NCBI GenBank assembly: GCA_030295235.1
Contig: AP026127.1
Coordinates: forward strand, 620,001 to 684,000
Reading direction: 5' to 3'
Origin: Fistulifera solaris
Taxonomy: Eukaryota
DNA: 64,000 nucleotides
The notes beneath the pieces are model-generated. The model was not told the DNA's origin, made no database searches, and was given only the letters and a program-made list of their open reading frames with translations. Each line of letters starts with the position of its first letter. The first letter of the stretch is position 1. Below, one piece after another: positions 52,920 through 63,428 of this stretch. The translations under genes and the position numbers were made by a program.

Positions 52920-53265
52920 CAAAAGGTTTCAATTTTTGTCGGGGTCGGCTCTAAAAGACGGCACTCAGGAGAATCCCTAAGCTCTCAGAGGAAGCAGTTA
53001 GACTAGGTGTACAGTATAGCGTCCCTTAGCTTTTGTTTCCTCTTGAGTCGTCGGAGTTGGCGATTCTCGATTGTGGAGCGAGGAGCGAGAGGAGACCTCG
53101 ATGAAGTAATAACTAGCCAACAGCCAACAGCCAACCTACGATTACGATGACTTCAATGACCGAAAGAACAAGACCGAATCGAGAACATCGCAATGTTATT
53201 TAAATACTATGACGTATTGTGTACTCGATGTACAATAGAAGATGGGAAACGAGAAACTATGAAGG

Positions 53266-53395
53266 GGGAGACTTCCGTTAGGTCTCCAACCAGGGTGAAC
53301 CTCTTCCGATAGCTCTCCCGTTAGGAGAGACGTTAACTGACTACATTCAACTTTACAGTAGAGTACGCGCCATTGGATGTGGTACTAATTACTTA
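53266..53395 (+). repeat. MULE left terminal inverted repeat
   Basis: GGGAGACTTCCGTTAGG...GGTACTAATTACTTA, the reverse complement of 58982-59111. Confidence 0.95.
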
Positions 53396-53565
53396 AAGGC
53401 CTTCCATCCATCATTAGTTCTACTTAGGTCACGCACAATAACCGCACAATCGTTCGCGTTGTGCGTTTGTTCCGCTCCGACTGCCGACAAGATGATCAGA
53501 ACGCTGCATTCCTTATTGTCATAGTTGCCCTTCCGTTCCTACTGTTGCTCTTTTACAACATTAAC

Positions 53566-55750
53566 ATGTCGATCATTGAAACGAAGGAGGCGGCGATCAT
53601 TCGTCACGATTATGCAAAAATATGGGGCACTTCCTCCAACCGGTCCGTATGATTTTGAAAAGTTTCTCTATGACAAACCGATCCCTGAGGATGATCACGA
53701 GGAGCTTCTCCGCAGCATCGCTTTTGTGTACGATCGAAAGCTCTTACGAGATGTCAGCAAGCACGGAGAAAGCCCTTGCTACGTGTGCACTTGCTGCAAA
53801 ACGTTCTCACTTAAGTTCAAGGAAGAAAACGGCGAACTTCGATTGCTACACGACCATCCTAGTACTAACTTCAGGCACAGTTTGTTTTGCACTCCAACAA
53901 ACGACCTCCCAAAGGACTGCCGCAGAAAATCAATGATAGTGCAGAACATTCCTGCTGTTCAAGACTTCTTCAAAACATGCTTCCAGGCACCAAACTTCGA
54001 CAGTCATGCTACTCGCAAGAATCTCAACGCCGTCCTCAGGAAAGAGGGTTTCGACATCGAAGTTGGCCCGACAATGCATTCAAATCTCAAGAAACACTTC
54101 CGTGAGGTCTACCGAAAGGATTTGTTGATGTACAATGAGCTGTTGGCCCAGTATCTTCGGAAATATGTCGAGCTAAATCCAAATGCCTCCGTCAATTTAG
54201 AAACTGACCAGAACTCATGCTTTTTTCGGTCAACTGTGTTCATTGAGAATGCCGGCGCACTTCTTTAGAAATGCCTGCATTCCTGCAATCTTTTAGACGG
54301 AACACACATCCGTATACCCGAACACGATGGAATTGGAGTCCCGATCATAGGGGTCGATGGAAATGGAAGTAACATTCCACTTGGTTTTGGGTTGATTCCC
54401 TCGGAAAACAAGCAAGGGATGATATATATCCTTCTCATGATGTATCAAGCTGGGTTCAATTTCGAAGAGTTTCCAGTATTCACTGACCGAGGACACATTC
54501 TCGCCGCTGTCCGAGCGTTGGCAGAACATTATGGACTGGTTGTTTCCGTGAAGTATTGCTTGATTCATATTCTTCAAACATTTACCATCTATTCAATATC
54601 AATCAACGATCGCTGAGAGGGCAGAGCGGTCGCTTGGTTTATGCGCGAGATGCAAAGCTCCAGATGTTAACGCCTTCTTGGATGCTGCGAAGAAGCTTGT
54701 CAAAGCGCTTCCACAAATTGAAGAAAACGAAACTCTTAGTACCGGTGCGCGAATTGTTATCTATGTTCTTGGGACAATTCATCCTACTCATTGGACTGTG
54801 TTTGGAAATACACCGAGTCAACATGAATCTATGTGGGAGCCCCTATATTTTACCTATCTAGCTGAAGTGAATGGCTTCACAGAGATAAGTGGAGACGTCG
54901 ACGAATGGAGGTGGTTGCTCAACGATCACGTGCCAGTTGGAAACAAGTTCCCTTTATATGGTTTCTGTTCAACAAATCATGTCGAATCGGCCCAGCAGTG
55001 GCTTCTACATCATGAAGTGAGGACTAATACCCCTCCACTAGCCATTTCTAACTTTTTGATGGCGGCTGCCGAATCTCTTCGACAATTTCGAGATGAAATA
55101 ACAACCAAATCTGCTAGGTTCCTCACCATATACTTTCGAAGCTTGCAAGATACAGGCAATGAAGATCTAGATTTTGTAATAGAGGATGCTGAAGGATGCC
55201 CGATGGCAGTTTGAAATTCAAATTGTACGCTGAAAAGCACAAGAAGACGGAGTATGTTACTTATGAACCCACGAGCACTCCGTCCCTGTACTGCTCCTGC
55301 AGTAGAACAGCGATGCGGGAAATCTACTGCGGCCACATCAACCTTGTTTCACGTACAAGATCCTCAACTTGGCCCTCAATCCCACCCTCTGTGTTTTCGC
55401 AATTCTACGAAGAGTTTGGAAAAGTTCCGACAAGTGGTGATCGTCAGCTTCCTTACAGAGTTTCTTAACAACTATCCAGCGACTTGACGTCCCGGGATTT
55501 GGGGATATCAAGCTTGCTTATCAATCAGAAAACATTTATCCATCACCAACTTACACTGACAAGCTTAACTCGGGGAACAGAATAATCAGTAATGGTGAAC
55601 CCGGGACCACGTAAGTCAAAGAAAAAGAAGCAATCGGCGCTGGAATCAGCACGAATGACAAAGGAGTATGAGCCAAGTTCAAAGAACAAGCTCAGTCGAA
55701 ATAACGATGCAATAGCAGAAGCGATTGCCGCCCGATGGTCTGTTTGATTT
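53566..55750 (+). CDS. MULE (MuDR-type) DDE transposase with SWIM zinc finger; several apparent frameshifts, 3' boundary uncertain
   Basis: LDGTH (D at 54296), GVDGNG..PLGFGLIPSEN, VFTDRG (D at 54485), KYCLIH (CxxH), STNHVES (E at 54984). SWIM CSCSRTAMREIYCGH. N-terminal CTCC...RHSLFC. Confidence 0.88.
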
Positions 55751-57987
55751 TGGGACCAAACCAAAGGCGGAACACATGCAACAGCTAGAATCAACTCTTG
55801 GACGAACGTGAGACGGCAAGCCCTTACCTCGGCACTGCTTTCACTGCAGATCACCGAATCACACAATTCGACAGTGTCTGGACTACCTCAAAGATGATCG
55901 AAGGTACATGGATCCTGCATTACTTGAAACTGGCGCAATTCTGGTCAACCATTTCCCAACATGCGTCATTGACATGGATGCAGGAATTACTTCTGAAGAT
56001 TTGGACAACGATGATACCTCCGGGAGGACATGGCCTTCACAATATTGACAAGATTGGCTTAGTAGAAGACTCTGATGCAGCCAATGCCATTGTCCAGTCA
56101 CGGATTTTAAAGCTTACTGGAGAAGACGCTGCAGAAATTCACGCTGAAGACGACAACGAAAATAACTATCTTCTGGATATGGACCTTGCTCCGTCAGGTA
56201 GTAACCGAGATATTGTAGTAATTATTCGTGACAAGGATTACACGGAAAGAAGAAGTCACGAACAAGAATTGACCATGGTTGATGATGTCGAGGTAGGCAT
56301 CCATGACGATTCCCGTCTGAACAGTGCACACTCGGGTCATCTGTCGACAATTCTAGAGGATGAAGATGTGGAACCAAGCACCGCACATAATGCTTTTGCC
56401 TCAAGTCCCGCAACAACAGAATATTCAGTAAATGAAATGCCAACAACTAGAACAAAGAGGAGATCCAAACAAGTAACGAATTTAAAAGCGCAGAAGGCAA
56501 GTCCATCTACCGCGCAAAGTCATCGATATTGAAGACAGCGACCGCATCCAGACCGAATTTGAAACCACCGACCACAACAGCTTGTGCTTCCAGTCCAGCA
56601 ACAACAGATTTTTCATTAGTCAAAATGGCAACGAGAAAGAGGAAAACGGCCGAAACAGCCACCAAATCAAAAAGCTGAAGGAACAAGTCCCGCCACAACT
56701 GATTCGTCAATCTTTGAGAGGCCGACCATGAAGAGTCAAAATCTGAAGCCACCACCTGATATCAGAGCTCATGCCTTGACTATCGAGTCTTCAATGAATG
56801 AGAATACAACACAAAAAAGGAAAAGATCGAAACTGACAGCAAATTCCAGAGCCAAAGGCCCGACTCATGCCCGTAAAAAGAAGTTGAAACCGCCACCGAT
56901 TGCAGAAGCAAAAGCAGGAAGTCCCGCCACAGCAGTTTCTTCCATAGTTGAGATGCCAACTATGAAGAGGGGTAATCTGAGAGCACTGCCAAGATCTCAT
57001 TCGAAACAGTCCAACAACCGAAGTATCACGATTCCTGAAGATATGATTATAAAGATACCGAAGACAGAACCCACTAATGCAAGTCCCGCCACGTCTGCTA
57101 GTGACGATTCATCACATGTATTTAAAAGGCGATTAGACATCCAAAAGAAGAATGCAAGTCCCGCCAAATCCGGTAATCTCAGTGACGATTCGTCGCATTT
57201 CCTGAAAATGCCGGCTAGATCTGCGAAGAAAGAACTTGGCACAAAATGAAGCTCTCAAGTTCATTTTCAGTGGGTATTCCGAAAACCAGAAGAACTCGTA
57301 GAGCTATAACAAGTCCCGCTACTGCCACTAGTGGGACCTCATCACAATTCTTGAGAACACCCTTCGACCTGAGACGTAAGATTGTAGATCCCAGAAATGA
57401 AAATCAATTTTCATTACGCCGACAACAAGTAAGGCAAATTGGAGTAGCCCCTTTGCAACCCCCAGTCATTACTGATGAACCATCAAAGATCGTATCCTAT
57501 TTTTACGACACAGCTTATCCATTTGTGGGAACCATTGAGCAATTAAATTGTTTGGTTCAAGAACACGAGTTTGATATTCCAGAATCATTTCACGGAAACG
57601 GAAACAAATGATTTAACGATGAAAAGAAGGGCTTCAACCCGAAAACGCAAGGCAGCAAACCAGCGAGGACTTGTGAGTGAGAACAATATTGCAATCCACG
57701 TGCGCGGAATACTCTTGCAGAGACAGCAAAAGGAAAGAAGTGGAATAGAATCATTTATCACTGTAGGGACAAGAAAGAATGGAAACGATCTGATTTACAA
57801 CAAAGAAGATGCCAGGGGATCTCTTCGGTCACTCCTTTTTGCAATCCAGTGCAAGGGCGTTGATAAAGGTCGCGGAGTCGTCCACGACCTGAAGAGGGAA
57901 AGAAGCATCATATCAAGGTGCTAAGTGGTGCCACGGCATCCATAACCAGTGAATGCCTTGAAATTATGAACTCGCAATGTTATTTCA

Positions 57988-58619
57988 ATGACGATTGTGA
58001 ACAGTTTCCTTGAAAGCATAACAAGCAAGACCGTAACGGATGAGGGAGTTATTGCACACCCGTCGTATGTCATGAGTAATCTGTGGGATTCCGCCAACCA
58101 AAATATTAAGAGAGAGGGTAGACTGCAGCTTAGTTCAGCGTTTGTGGCATTGAATTCTATGACAAAATCGAACAATTTGGGCATTCATTTATTCCCTATG
58201 TGCAAGGAGAGGCACTGGTGGTTGATGGTGGTTGATGCCGATAATCGAGTTATTTATTCGCTCGACTCCCTCGAAGATCCGGACGATCACTACTCTAATG
58301 CTGTCTGGCTTTCAGGTTTATTTAAATTCGCGCGGTGAGGCAGCAATTAGAATGCGCGTCAACAAGCGAGCAGCAGGAATCAACATTACCCGATTTCGCT
58401 CCGTGGGAATACCAAGAAATGCGTCTTCCCAATAAACTATTGCAACATGATGGCCATAGTTGCGGACCATATGTATGTTTTTATGCGGCGACAATTCTGA
58501 AACATGGTCGACGTGCCCTCAATGAGAGGACATGGTTCCTTGACTCTATTTCGGAGATTGGAGTCGGAGATGATCTCCGACCTTTTGTATTTGATGTTAT
58601 GTTTCAATTGGCTGAATGA
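57988..58619 (+). CDS. Ulp1/SENP-like C48 cysteine protease domain carried by the MULE; apparent frameshift near 58336
   Basis: Catalytic motifs in the expected order: LFPMCKERHWWLMVVD (His), IYSLDSL (Asp), LQHDGHSCGPYVC (oxyanion Gln and Cys). Confidence 0.85.
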
Positions 58620-58981
58620 CACGTATAGAGTAATGTGTGATATTAATCAACCAAGTCTAGTTTGAAACTGAAATTGTGTAGATTGGGTTTTGATTATTTA
58701 CACGAAGTAGTTTTCGACGAAAGCCTTGATCGGTGGAAGGTCACGTAGGCTGGGTTTTTCTTTATTGGAAGGTCGCTCGCTGCATCAGGGTCACGTAGGC
58801 TGGTTTTTCTTTATTGACAATTGAGAGCGGTCGCTCGCTGACTTTTTCTTTATCAAGAGCGGTCGCGCTCGCTGACTATTGTTTATTGAGGATTTGGTTA
58901 TCTTAGAGGGGTGATTCATGAATCATCCGGGACTGTCATTCATAAGGCTTTGTTACTTTATCGAGCAACCTAAGTAGATTC

Positions 58982-59111
58982 TAAGTAATTAGTACCACAT
59001 CCAATGGCGCGTACTCTACTGTAAAGTTGAATGTAGTCAGTTAACGTCTCTCCTAACGGGAGAGCTATCGGAAGAGGTTCACCCTGGTTGGAGACCTAAC
59101 GGAAGTCTCCC
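58982..59111 (-). repeat. MULE right terminal inverted repeat
   Basis: TAAGTAATTAGTACC...CCTAACGGAAGTCTCCC, followed by the TSD ACTATGAAG. Confidence 0.95.
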
Positions 59112-59328
59112 ACTATGAAGACAAGACGACGTCACAATGGAAAATCTACTTGCCAAGCCTACACGGCTATGCGTATCAATTATCAATCACCCTCGACCGC
59201 CATGAGCGCATTGTGTCTCTCGCATCTCTCACCTTTTTTGCGAAGAGGACGAATACGAATTGATCAATAACCAATCCACTTCTGGCTTATCGTTGCTTCT
59301 ACTGCAGTTTTCTTTCTCCATCGAGAAG

Positions 59329-61137
59329 ATGTCGCCATCTTTGTCTCTTTGCAAAGTGGCGCTTGTGGCCCTTTTCCTCTCTTTTCTGCCTAGCTGCACT
59401 TCTCGGGCAACTTGCATTTGACTCCGAGGCTTTGGGAGTCCAGTCACCGGGAACGCTGAGCTCACAAAAAAGATATTACAACATTTGTGAAATACTTGAT
59501 AATCAATCTCCCGCGTCTTTATGGGCCCAGAATCTAAAACGTATCTTACGTGCGAGCCAAAGCCCCCTTGATGTGGATTATCAACTGCAGATTCCGACAG
59601 CCCAAGTACTGAAAGTGATTACTCCCAGGCTACATAGTGGCTTAAAATCAACTCCTCGTGACTGGCAAGCTCTGGAAAATGTGATCGAGACAACTAATCG
59701 AAGACTGGCTTATTTGAATGCAAAGAAGGAAGGTCATTTGATTGAAGAAGCCCGTCCTTTAAAGATCCTGGTTTTGGGTGGGTCTGTTACGAAGGGAGTC
59801 AACTGTAAGACTGGTATTAAGGATTACCATGACGTTGAATGCAGTTGGGTGGTCCGGCTTGAAACATTGCTCAATAACTTGGCCGGTGATCGGGTGGTGG
59901 ACGTGCACTTGGCAGCGGTGGGTGGAACGAATTCGGCTACTGCGCAAGCCATGTTAGAGTATGATCTTTTACCAGAAAAGATGAGAGAGCCTGATATCAT
60001 AATTAATGCCTATGCAACCAATGATATGCACATTTTGACGCTTCAGGAAGCTACGAGTCAAAATATCTCACTGCAAGAGAAAATCTTTGGGATGGCGCAG
60101 AATTTCACACGCACTGCGCTCCAGCAATGCACAGAGGAAGGAAAGACACCCTTACTTCTTTGGCTTGATGACTATTTGGGGAATGAACAAAGAGAAATAC
60201 TCGCTACTTCGGACTTTATTCAAAGCCTGCAAGTACTTGCGGGCTATTACGGATTTGGACTCATGTCCTATGCCGATACCGTGCGTGATCTTGTTTACGG
60301 TTCCACTGGCGAGCGATCTTTTCACCGCCCGGATGGTATAAAAACGGTCCCGAGATGAAACGAGAAATCCATCCACCGTACCCCATGCATATCGCGGTGT
60401 CGTACATTGTCGCCTACACCTTTTTGCAACTCGCGTCGAATCACTGCGGCTTGAAATCATGGAAAATTACTTCATGGGAGAATAATCTCGATTACTTCGA
60501 TGCGCCGATTCCAGATTTCCTTGACACAAAAGGAAGCATGCCTACTTTGGATTCGCCACCACTGCCTCGACCAAAAGGACTCCCTCCTTTCTTGACCAGC
60601 GATCTCAAGTTGGACGATATTTCGAAGTTGTGGCGCGAAGCGGCGCCGACACAGTGTGAAGCGGAAAAGGCGAACCGGGTTCGTTGTCCAGTGGGCTGGG
60701 TCAGTGGTTTTCGGCCGGATTTAAAGACAAATAACACCATGAATTACTTTGCGCCATATATTCGGGAGCCATTCGAATGGGAATGGCGGAACGACAAAGG
60801 GAAATTCGGATGGCTACCAACTCTTTCAAGTGGCGCAAAGATGGCTTTTGACTTTCCTTTGGAGCAGGAGATCCATCGCATAGTGTTATTCTACATGAAG
60901 AGCTACGGGGCAACATGGGAAAGGTCAAAGTCTCGTTTGCATGTCTACCTTGATGACGATAAAAGGGACGTCCCGTCTCTCGAAGTTTCTTTATCTGGGT
61001 TTCACGACAAAGAAACGAGTGAAGTATACGTGGAGGAGGTGCAGCTACCACGCGGAGCGTCGAGGAGGCTTCAAATGACGGTTGAGCATGCAGCTGGGAA
61101 GACATTCAAGCTGATGGGATTCGCGATTTGCAGCTGA
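59329..61137 (+). CDS. SGNH/GDSL-hydrolase-like type II membrane protein, paralogue 1; apparent frameshifts
   Basis: N-terminal TM. Block I ILVLGGSVTKG, block II GGTNS, block III AYATND, block V EIHP. C-terminal LFYMKSYG...FKLMGFAICS. Confidence 0.75.
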
Positions 61138-61581
61138 ACTTTACGCCTCGGTGTTTCTTTTGAAAACAACGGATTCTAAGTTCGACATGGTGCACGCTCG
61201 AAGTTTCATTAGAACACATTAGCTGGTTCAGAAAATGATGGCGAGAAACAGGAAAACGAGCTCGTCGATTAAACGTCAGCTGTGTAAGGTACATGGTATT
61301 TCGTTTAATTATCCTAGATTCTTTGTAGAAAATGTAATTTGTGGATGGTAAACGCTCCCATAATTCTTTGTGTTCCTTAAGCGTCCAGCTTGATTGTATC
61401 GCAAAATAGAAGGGGCAAAACATAGCCGTTTGGTGATTGGGCCTTAGCGAAGGTGACGTCATTCGCATGATGACCTTTCCCGTGTGACGATAACAACATG
61501 ATAACACATCATACTCCGGGGTAATAGCTGTGTTGCTATCATAATCTCAACATTTGCTTCTCATTCACTGTTGAAGAAGGA

Positions 61582-63428
61582 ATGGAAGGTAATCAAAAGC
61601 CGCAACGTCCCTGGTTGAATCTAAGAACGCAACTATTCGTTTTCCTGTCCCTGTTCTGCGCGGCAGACCTCTTTCGGCAACACGAAACCTTTCAGACGAA
61701 CGCACCGCAAGTCTTTTTCACATCTTCCTACCATGACCAATCCAGTCAACACCTGGCTGCAATAAACGACAGTATATGTGGCATACTCGACAATCAATCT
61801 CCTACAGCTTTATGGGCAAATCACATTGAAACCATTTTACGGGCCAGTCAAAGCCCTATTGACACAAATTATGTTTTGAAGGATCCGACGGCCCAAGTAC
61901 TGAAAATCATCACACCCAGATTACACAATGGTCTCAAATCCAACCCACGTGACTGGCAAACACTTCAGAATGTGGTTGAAACAACCAATCGAAGACTCGC
62001 TTATTTGAAAGCAAAAAGAGAAGGCCATGCGATGGAAGAGGCCCGACCTTTGAAGATTCTTGTCATGGGCGGGTCCGTGACAAAAGGAGTCGGTTGTAAG
62101 ACCAGCATCAAAAATTACAATGGAATAGACTGTTGCTGGGCGACACGACTCGAAACATTACTGAACGGCTTGGTTGGTGATCGAGTGGTGGATGTACATT
62201 TGGCAGCGGTGAGCGCCACTAATTCGGCGACGGGGCAAGTTATGCTCGAATACAACCTGATACCCGAGGAAATGAGGGGACCCGATATCATCATCAGTGC
62301 GTATTCCACGAATGATATGCATGTTTTTACCATCAAAGAAGCCATGAGTCAAAACATCTCGTTACGAGAGAAAATATTCGGAATGGCGCAGAATTTACAC
62401 GCACTGCCTTGCAGCAGTGTACAGAGGAAGGGAACACGCCCTTGTTGTTCTGGCTCGATGATTATTTAGGAAATGAGCAATACGAAGTATTGGGCACCTC
62501 GGAATTCATACAAGGGCTCCAAGTATTGGCTGGCTACTATGGTTTCGGGCTCTTGTCGTACGCGGACATGGTACGTGATCTTGTTTACGGCACGACCACT
62601 GAGAGATCGTTTTCACCAGCGGGATGGTACAATAAGAGTCCAGAAATGAAAAAAGAAATCCATTCACCGTATCCGATGCATATTGCGGTTGCGTATCTTT
62701 TCGCATATACATTCCTTGAGCTAGCTTCGGCATACTGTGGTCTTGAATCATGGAATGTGACGACATGGGAGAACAAAGAGAACTATTACAATGCAGCCGT
62801 TCCAGGACTTCCAGACACGCGAGAAAGCTCACAAACCTTAGACACGCCGCCCCAACCTCGCCCGATCGGTCTTCCTCCCCCCTTGGACTCCCACCTGAAG
62901 TTGGACGACATTTCGAAGTTGTGGAGGGAAGCTTCTTCAACGACGTGCGATGCTGACCGAGCGAACCGGGTTCGCTGTCCCGTTGGATGGATCAGTGGCT
63001 TTCGACCGGACCATACTACAGATGATGTGATGAATTACTTTCAACCGTACATTCAAGAGCCCTTTGAATGGGAATGGCGGATGCAGAACAAAAAGGCTGG
63101 CTGGCTACCCAAAGCCGTGACCGGCGCTACGATGACGTTTGAATTTCCATTGGAACAGGAAATTCATCGCCTGGTATTGTTTTATATGAAAAGCTATGGG
63201 GAATTGTGGGAAAATTCAAAGGCTGAGATAGAAATCTACTTGGATGAAGACAATGTCGATGATCACATCATTCAACTTTCACTAAGTGGCGTGCATGATA
63301 AGAGGGCGAGCGAGATATATTCAGAAGAAATTCTCTTGCCTCGTGGTGCGTCCAAGAAGCTTGGAATCACGGTCAAACATACAGCGGGAAACATATTTAA
63401 GTTGATGGGTTTCGCGATTTGCAGTTAA
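61582..63428 (+). CDS. SGNH/GDSL-hydrolase-like protein, paralogue 2; apparent frameshift near 62395
   Basis: Colinear and highly similar to paralogue 1 (ILVMGGSVTKG, SATNS, AYSTND, EIHS, FKLMGFAICS). Confidence 0.75.

What the first reader, a model, noticed from the sequence alone, without database searches (positions are those of the whole stretch)
53265..59111. Young, complete MULE carrying a Ulp1-like SUMO protease, possibly as one transposase-protease polyprotein
Seen: matching 130-bp TIRs, an exact 9-bp TSD, a full D-D-E/CxxH/SWIM transposase and a C48 protease with His-Asp-(Gln)-Cys intact. ORF fragments tile almost continuously on the + strand from 53566 to 58619 with no clear intergenic gap. 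Established: some Mutator-superfamily elements (plant KAONASHI, Phantom) carry Ulp1-like domains, and SUMOylation takes part in transposon silencing in several eukaryotes. Inference: an apparently recent diatom element encoding its own deSUMOylase, potentially an anti-silencing or self-processing module, perhaps fused to the transposase via a long disordered linker. This is the best candidate for an undescribed system in the window.
Basis: partly seen in the sequence, partly recalled or inferred. Interest (0 to 1): 0.8.

Follow-up and report, generated by a model that had tools for sequence, protein, structure and literature searches.

The report
Active diatom transposon with fused protease
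This is a real, very recently multiplied Mutator-type jumping gene of a diatom whose one large protein joins the cut-and-paste enzyme to a SUMO-type protease; the combination is already known from plants and animals, but this intact family is a good test case for what such proteases do.

Summary
Confirmed. The 5.85-kb element has perfect 130-bp TIRs and a 9-bp TSD. The genome holds 21 near-full copies and 3 deleted ones; a wetland metagenome shows the empty site. The window's stops and frameshifts are sequencing errors: two short-read runs disagree with them, and public protein P0002 gives one 1,685-codon ORF (DDE transposase, SWIM, CCHC knuckle, low-complexity linker, C48 protease with His-Asp-Gln-Cys). 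Errors cluster at CG, suggesting methylated copies read by long-read sequencing. The fusion is old: two other families in this genome and 12 of 28 long relatives carry C48, with His and Cys kept at 18% mean identity. Two relatives carry a USP-like protease instead, and one group has a ULP2-like domain. The deleted copies lose the transposase but keep the protease in frame. Best reading: a tethered SUMO isopeptidase acting at the element's ends; activity, substrate and expression are untested. Transposase-Ulp1 fusions are published (Mutator, Ginger1), and this scan noted what appears to be the same family on another piece of this genome. New member of a known kind, not an undescribed system.

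The parts
53256..53264 (.). left target-site duplication ACTATGAAG
   Evidence: empty site with 9 shared letters in runs X1 and X4
53266..53395 (+). left TIR, 130 bp (extra G at 53265 probably a homopolymer overcall, inferred)
53566..58619 (+). single intron-free ORF of 1,685 codons (broken in the window only by sequencing errors)
   Evidence: P0002/P0003; short-read contigs
53786..53878 (+). N-terminal Cys/His motif (C74, C77, H104), probable zinc-binding DNA-binding region (inferred)
   Evidence: C74 and H104 kept in most of 20 aligned relatives
54296..54986 (+). transposase core: D244, D307, C331xxH334, W410, E474
   Evidence: D244 in 20 of 20 rows; D307, C331, H334, E474 in 19 of 20, the exception being the domesticated copy P0004
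55292..55336 (+). SWIM-type zinc finger C577-x-C579...C589-x-H591
   Evidence: Pfam SWIM hits on relatives
55836..55877 (+). CCHC zinc knuckle C758-C771
55965..57912 (+). linker, residues about 801-1450: acidic stretch, then a basic Ser/Thr/Pro-rich stretch with seven SPA(T/K) repeats and Lys/Arg clusters
   Evidence: not conserved in relatives
57927..58616 (+). C48 (Ulp1/SENP-like) protease domain: H1551, W1552, D1568, Q1628, C1634
58739..58880 (+). short subterminal direct repeats in the 3' non-coding region, about 49-nt spacing
   Evidence: families D4, D8, D13, D14
58982..59111 (-). right TIR, 130 bp
59112..59120 (.). right target-site duplication ACTATGAAG
53673..56323 (+). stretch missing in the three 3.2-kb derivative copies; the joint is in frame and leaves an ORF of about 800 aa (N-terminal 35 aa, linker, protease)

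Best explanation
An autonomous, currently or very recently mobile Mutator-like DNA transposon of a diatom. It makes one 1,685-aa protein. The N-terminal 800 residues bind the 130-bp TIRs, cut with the DDE core and reinsert with a 9-bp duplication (anatomy and empty site shown; chemistry follows from Muta1). The C-terminal C48 domain is most likely an active SUMO isopeptidase. The long flexible linker tethers it to the transposase, so it works where the transposase sits. It strips SUMO from the transposase-DNA complex and from repair or chromatin proteins that gather at the ends and breaks, so that the complex is not inactivated or cleared before the jump is finished (inferred). Odds by step: real young element with one ORF about 0.95; protease catalytically active and useful to the element about 0.9; SUMO as substrate about 0.7; target is the transposase complex and break-site proteins rather than transcriptional silencing about 0.45 overall.
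For: One ORF in two public records. 21 near-full copies, only 9 clean private substitutions among 20, all beside a CG. 22 of 23 two-ended copies have a 9-10-nt duplication. Empty site in X1 and X4. Catalytic His 16 of 16, Cys 16 of 16, Asp 14 of 16 (Asn in 2), Gln 14 of 16 among transposon-linked C48 domains at 18% mean identity. Same layout in two more TIR elements of this genome at about 30% identity. Profile of the protease subgroup matches SENP2/SENP1 best (E 4e-10 to 7e-8), Ulp1 3e-6, SENP5 3e-4, ChlaDub1 1e-3, SENP7 1e-3; no SENP8 chain among 32 hits at E<=5. Host has SUMO genes ending in Gly-Gly. Sister lineages put a different ubiquitin-like protease in the same place, so the selected thing looks like 'a tethered isopeptidase'. 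The domesticated TIR-less copy has lost both catalytic residues and the protease.
Against: No activity, substrate, structure or transcript was shown. Identity to SENP1/2 is low (single-sequence E=0.96), and CE-clan enzymes at this distance can prefer ubiquitin or NEDD8 (recalled). 9 of 28 long relatives show no protease at all, so it is not required in every lineage, although some of these may be cut at an intron or contig end. Only 3 forward SUMO-consensus sites in P0002, conservation not tested. The three derivative copies keep the protease without a transposase to tether it.
Confidence: 0.45

Rival explanations
1. Anti-silencing: the tethered deSUMOylase removes SUMO from silencing factors at the TIRs and promoter and so keeps the element transcribed, as VANC/KIU proteins do for VANDAL elements; the protease-only derivative could help in trans.
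For: CG-linked errors spare the ends: 0 of 12 CG sites in the TIRs and 5 of 33 within 300 nt of the ends, against 103 of 246 inside (p=0.004). This resembles the end-restricted hypomethylation described for TnpA (10.64898/2026.08.24.746577, passages). Two relatives carry a Tudor-like domain in the linker. Ulp1-bearing KIU genes belong to an anti-silencing system (PMC13317346). Young diatom transposons are repressed by DNMT5 methylation (PMC9998398 abstract).
Against: The body of every full copy looks methylated (24-36 breaks per copy). Clean ends are equally explained by short-read polishing anchored in unique flanks. Methylation was inferred from error patterns, not measured. The review says the role of Ulp1 in KIU is unknown.
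Confidence: 0.25
2. The domain is a deubiquitinase or deNEDDylase, protecting the transposase from ubiquitin-dependent degradation.
For: Two relatives have a USP-like domain in the same position. ChlaDub1/2 chains are hit at E 1e-3 to 0.06. Ginger1 transposases alternate between OTU and Ulp1 (PMC2836005).
Against: SUMO-specific SENP1/2 and Ulp1 score far better than ChlaDub, and SENP8 is not hit. Host DEN1-like paralogues score lowest of the five host domains.
Confidence: 0.15
3. Self-processing polyprotein: the protease cuts the transposase free from the linker, as viral CE-clan proteases do (recalled).
For: The only Gly-Gly in P0002 (residues 820-821) lies just after the transposase module.
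Against: No Gly-Gly at a shared position in the 14 proteins where a knuckle was found; two C48-bearing relatives have none in the linker. One Gly-Gly is fewer than the 3.6 expected by chance. Plant elements often carry Ulp1 as a separate or opposite-strand gene (PMC2528002).
Confidence: 0.07
4. Neutral passenger: a captured host gene piece without use to the element (Pack-MULE-like).
For: MULEs often capture gene pieces (PMC2528002). Some relatives lack the domain.
Against: In-frame fusion with catalytic residues kept at 18% mean identity across 16 domains; no close host paralogue among five host C48 domains.
Confidence: 0.05
5. The stops and frameshifts are real and the copies are decayed.
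For: No copy in the assembly has an open frame longer than 420 codons, and the majority consensus is also broken.
Against: Short-read contigs X1 and X2 agree with each other against the window at all 12 indel rows shown. P0002/P0003 are unbroken. 85.5% of differences between copies lie within 2 nt of a CG, which covers 26% of positions.
Confidence: 0.03

Closest known systems
Mutator/MULE transposases with a Ulp1 domain (hydra, lancelet, maize, Arabidopsis, rice, melon; PMC2836005; MULE-ULP fusions in rice, PMC12903978)
   Same: MULE DDE transposase and a C48 domain in one element; fused C-terminal position in some; function proposed but untested
   Different: Diatom host; one intron-free ORF with a 650-aa linker; near-identical mobile copies; relatives swap the protease type. 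I could not compare sequences with the Repbase entries.
KAONASHI/KIU of Arabidopsis VANDAL elements (PMC13317346, PMC2528002)
   Same: MULE-borne Ulp1 domain kept over long time
   Different: KI-MULEs lack TIRs, and the Ulp1 domain is on a separate, opposite-strand gene joined to VANC. This element has long TIRs and the domain is on the transposase.
Ginger1 transposases with C-terminal Ulp1 or OTU (PMC2836005)
   Same: Protease fused to the C-terminus of a cut-and-paste transposase; interchangeable ubiquitin-like proteases among families
   Different: Ginger1 has a Gypsy-integrase-like transposase and 4-bp TSD; here a MULE core and 9-bp TSD
MULE-Diatoms, group 37 of PMC6446971
   Same: Diatom MULEs with one ORF, SWIM finger and TIRs of similar size (123-124 bp)
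   Different: The table lists no protease, no CCHC and no TSD for that group; whether this element falls in it was not testable
SENP1/SENP2/Ulp1 SUMO proteases (PDB 1tgz, 2xre, 1euv)
   Same: His-Asp-Cys triad, oxyanion Gln, His-Trp motif and an aromatic-x-N-D motif aligned to WLND
   Different: About 20-25% identity; Tyr in place of the first Trp in this family (Trp in the two other families of the genome); substrate unknown

Membership tests
Mutator/MULE superfamily | Long terminal inverted repeats | tested here: met
   130 bp, exact
Mutator/MULE superfamily | 8-11-bp target-site duplication made on insertion | tested here: met
   22 of 23 two-ended copies; empty site with one copy of the 9 letters
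Mutator/MULE superfamily | DDE triad with C/DxxH motif and conserved Trp between D2 and E (PMC5225508) | tested here: met
   D244, D307, C331xxH334, W410, E474
Mutator/MULE superfamily | Match to Pfam MULE (PF10551) above the curated cut-off | tested here: inconclusive
   E=3e-4 on a window fragment, 0.014 on P0002, both below 27.6 bits; relative P0111 passes
Mutator/MULE superfamily | Excision and reinsertion by its own transposase | not testable with these tools
   Indirect only: identical copies and insertion polymorphism
Peptidase C48 (Ulp1/SENP) | Pfam PF02902 above cut-off | tested here: met
   28 bits against 20.7; Atlas first hits 0.95-0.96 to C48 clusters
Peptidase C48 (Ulp1/SENP) | His-Asp-Cys triad and oxyanion Gln in CE-clan order | tested here: met
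   H1551, D1568, Q1628, C1634 aligned to SENP2
Peptidase C48 (Ulp1/SENP) | CE-clan fold | not testable with these tools
SUMO-specific protease | Cleaves SUMO after Gly-Gly | not testable with these tools
   Sequence ranking favours SENP1/2; no assay or complex model
KAONASHI/KI-MULE | Non-TIR MULE with Ulp1 on a separate gene opposite to mudrA | tested here: not met
   Long TIRs, same-strand in-frame fusion
Pack-MULE | Non-autonomous element with a recent, usually decaying host gene piece | tested here: not met
   Intact transposase; no close host paralogue; conserved catalytic residues

The most novel reading that the evidence does not exclude
A widespread clade of MULEs treats a tethered ubiquitin-like protease as a swappable counter-defence module (SENP-like C48, ULP2-like C48 taken from a host, or USP-like). 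In this diatom family the protease keeps the TIRs and promoter free of SUMO-dependent silencing while the body is methylated, and a transposase-less, in-frame derivative has spread to three sites as a protease-only helper.
Probability: 0.2. Interest if true: 0.75.

Novelty: new member of a known kind. Interest (0 to 1): 0.42.

Why it matters
Ulp1-like domains have been seen on Mutator, CACTA and Ginger transposons for nearly twenty years, and the papers read here still call their function unknown. Most known carriers are spliced, old or broken. This one is a single intron-free ORF in a family of near-identical mobile copies with a known empty site and a natural transposase-less derivative, so a Cys-to-Ala test of the protease in transposition is straightforward. 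The swap between protease types in sister lineages suggests that transposases are under general pressure from host SUMO or ubiquitin systems. A practical point: apparent frameshifts in this assembly's transposons should not be read as decay.

Tried and rejected
Majority consensus of 21 copies: still broken, because the errors recur at the same sites. Metagenome contig scan with P0002: 91 pattern matches, none confirmed. Word-based protein searches found only P0002 (1 of 1,388 candidates; 1 of 454); one search covered an unhelpful length range (2,950-5,000 aa) and found nothing. Sequencing runs: no RNA holder listed; X2 is only guessed to be RNA and covers flanks and element evenly, so it was treated as DNA and not as evidence of expression. 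X3 and X4 cover the element too thinly to use, apart from X4's 151-nt empty-site contig. Introns as the cause of the breaks: rejected, the ORF is contiguous in P0002. Conserved Gly-Gly self-cleavage site: not found. The position of USP-bearing P0012 in the transposase tree is unresolved; support labels on the path to the midpoint root may be shifted, so only forks off that path are cited. The careful C48 tree did not finish; the quick tree is used. P0018 found no solved structure by sequence. Bacterial promoter scan and tandem-repeat scan were uninformative. Papers with no bearing: PMC13547354, PMC12730594, PMC5735166 (no Ulp/SUMO passages), PMC10138897 (abstract only).
Full report
1. The observation. 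The element runs from 53266 to 59111. Its 130-bp ends are exact inverted copies, apart from one extra G at 53265. It is flanked by ACTATGAAG on both sides. Reading frames tile the + strand from ATG 53566 to TGA 58619 but in about 25 pieces. Of 12 fragments scanned, one hit Pfam MULE, one zf-CCHC and two Peptidase_C48, all weakly; a fifth hit was the neighbouring host gene.

2. A very young family. The window lies in G000, 51.7 Mb in 62 contigs. A DNA search scored 30 candidates and found 20 full-length copies (the window's included), one copy lacking its right end, and three copies with the same internal deletion, all 98-99% identical; a protein search with 50 candidates found the core at the same 21 places. 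Counts are lower bounds. Of 23 copies with both ends, 22 have a 9-10-nt duplication (18 scored 9, 4 scored 10 in homopolymer contexts); L002 has none. Run X1, a wetland metagenome, has a contig that skips the element and keeps one copy of the 9 letters; X4 has a short contig with the same joint. In X1 the element has depth 84 against 9.8 for that empty-site contig. X2 holds both junctions of this insertion, so it is probably the same strain and is independent in method only. The host is a diatom: two proteins that the source names as Fistulifera solaris match loci L039 and L040 essentially letter for letter.

3. The breaks are sequencing errors. No copy in the assembly has an open frame above 420 codons, and the majority consensus is broken too. 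But X1 gives one 5,421-nt contig over 53599-59011 with 36 gaps and 4 other letters against the window, and X1 and X2 agree at all 12 indel rows shown (22 more were not shown). P0002 from JGI is one ORF of 1,685 aa; 1,676 residues tile the window exactly. P0003 from an NCBI contig of 5,853 nt is the same sequence with 35 extra upstream residues. Whether P0002 comes from the same data as X1 is unknown. Among 20 copies, 85.5% of 1,042 discordant cells lie within 2 nt of a CG, which covers 26% of positions; 13 of the 18 short-read differences tested do too. Only 9 clean private substitutions remain, each beside a CG. Controls: the transposase-derived host gene L039 has 205 CG in 2,682 nt and no break; its partner L040 has 4 breaks, all in the last 170 residues; the single-copy element L041 has 7 breaks in 472 residues. 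I infer long-read miscalls at methylated CG. Modification-induced nanopore errors are described for bacteria (PMC11610603, abstract), DNMT5 methylates young transposons in Phaeodactylum (PMC9998398, abstract), and G000 has 11 C5-methyltransferase matches (not typed to DNMT5). The sequencing method and the methylation were not observed. The ends are cleaner than the body (5 of 33 against 103 of 246 CG sites, p=0.004); unmethylated ends or flank-anchored polishing would both give this.

4. The protein. N-terminal Cys/His motif; D244, D307, C331xxH334, W410, E474; SWIM; CCHC knuckle; a linker of about 650 residues, acidic then basic, with seven SPA(T/K) repeats; C48 domain with H1551, D1568, Q1628, C1634. 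DDE, the CH motif and the Trp are the residues shown to matter in Muta1 (PMC5225508, passages). All 24 copies carry the His and Cys motifs; the Asp motif was misread in 3. The three 3.2-kb copies join window 53672 to 56324 in frame, which would give about 800 aa with linker and protease but no transposase; each has its own TSD. In frame has a one-in-three chance, and it is one event. X2's depth (397 in the deleted part, 459 in the kept part, about 20 per copy) fits three such copies, though no joint was listed.

5. The fusion is old and the module is swapped. Two single-copy TIR elements in G000 (L041, 263-bp TIRs; L042, 238-bp TIRs) have the same layout at about 30% identity, with the protease motifs intact. 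A profile search found 535 relatives at E<=0.001; of the best 150, 28 are 871 aa or longer. Pfam finds C48 in 12 of these 28 (11 above cut-off). Four more have it in part: P0057 by my own profile, P0017 and P0103 ending in a WLND motif (read by eye), P0011 through cluster-mate P0158. Two, P0012 and P0018, end instead in a domain with a Cys box and a His box that align with each other (E=7e-6) and whose Atlas look-alikes with a family are UCH/USP clusters (0.91-0.94); this is a lead, not a fold. One has a UCH piece at its N-terminus and 9 show no protease. The profile held some protease columns by accident, so these shares lean upward. Hosts of the relatives are unnamed. Across 16 C48 domains at 18% mean identity, His and Cys are kept in 16, Asp in 14 (Asn in 2), Gln in 14; one row is cut short near the Cys. 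In a quick tree of 15 element and 5 host domains, four element domains group with a host ULP2-like gene (97), P0002 groups with P0005 (96) and with no host gene, and deep forks are open. In the transposase tree, USP-bearing P0018 is sister to C48-bearing P0017 (94.7). This suggests repeated capture or replacement, not one origin, but neither tree was tested for monophyly.

6. How it most likely works. Shown: anatomy, one ORF, recent insertion, long-term conservation of catalytic residues. Inferred: the protease is active, prefers SUMO, and acts where the transposase binds. The subgroup profile ranks SENP2/SENP1 first (4e-10 to 7e-8), Ulp1 3e-6, SENP5, ChlaDub1 and SENP7 near 1e-3, and no SENP8 among 32 hits. 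The host has tandem SUMO paralogues. I put 0.45 on removal of SUMO from the transposase complex and break-site proteins, 0.25 on anti-silencing at the ends, 0.15 on ubiquitin or NEDD8, 0.07 on self-processing (no shared Gly-Gly site), 0.05 on a passenger and 0.03 on real decay. That SUMO marks DNA-bound proteins for clearance is recalled and seen only in search listings. No fold, complex model or transcript could be obtained.

7. What is known. Ulp1 domains are reported on Mutator transposases of hydra, lancelet and plants and fused to Ginger1 transposases, where OTU alternates with Ulp1; a C19 protease fused to a Trichomonas transposase is also mentioned (PMC2836005, passages). Grapevine MULEs and CACTAs (PMC2528002, passages), rice MULE-ULP fusions (PMC12903978, passages) and KIU genes, whose Ulp1 function is called unknown (PMC13317346, passages), add to this. 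C48 is used as a routine accessory marker for fungal DNA transposons (PMC5751038, one passage). The MULE survey lists a diatom group without a protease (PMC6446971, passages and second half of section 6). I found no paper on a diatom MULE with a protease in searches; the library lacks most subscription journals and Repbase, and I opened no supplements, which may hold such elements. Earlier notes of this scan describe what appears to be the same family on another piece of this genome and similar fusions, one USP-like, in fungi; I did not check them beyond my own results.

8. Verdict. Observation confirmed; interpretation right on structure, open on function, overstated on novelty. New member of a known kind, with two additions worth keeping: swapped protease types among sister lineages and an in-frame protease-only derivative. 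Interest 0.42, mainly as a clean test system.

Noticed in passing
L039:2607-5288 (+) and L040:2572-5248 (+): A TIR-less, syntenic pair of genes derived from this transposase clade; second Asp and CxxH lost, no protease: a domesticated MULE gene, annotated only as hypothetical or SWIM-domain protein.
   Followed up: partly
L041:3092-7521 (-), L042:2274-6556 (+): Two further single-copy TIR MULEs with transposase and C48 on one strand and shorter linkers; also broken at CG-rich spots in the assembly.
   Followed up: partly
L026:1083-1989: A 900-bp MITE-like element with 183-bp TIRs (98%) and the first 80 codons of a related transposase (64% identity).
   Followed up: no
L002 (G000:C18:848116-853966): Full copy with unrelated left and right flanks and no TSD: recombination between two copies or misassembly.
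   Followed up: no
L021 (G000:C16:893103-898704): Copy whose last 280 nt, with the right TIR, are missing or garbled; more substitutions than the other copies.
   Followed up: no
L043:5553-6221 (+): A lone, broken C48 domain of the transposon type (27% to P0002) without a transposase match or TIRs in 10 kb.
   Followed up: partly
L065 and L067: Host SUMO genes occur as tandem paralogues with different C-termini (QTGG, QAGG, QVGG).
   Followed up: no
P0028, P0033: Relatives with a Tudor-like domain (PF21743) in the linker and a ULP2-like C48 domain.
   Followed up: partly
P0078, P0092, P0093, P0117: Relatives whose C48 domain sits mid-protein with 400-700 further residues behind it, not examined.
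   Followed up: no
window 59264-63425: Tandem SGNH/GDSL-like hydrolase genes just right of the insertion; the first seems to have a frameshift near its start.
   Followed up: no
L004:398-1438, L027:4208-5275, L025 near 3931: Other transposase-like ORFs and a degenerate relative of this element (86% at the ends) in fetched flanks.
   Followed up: no
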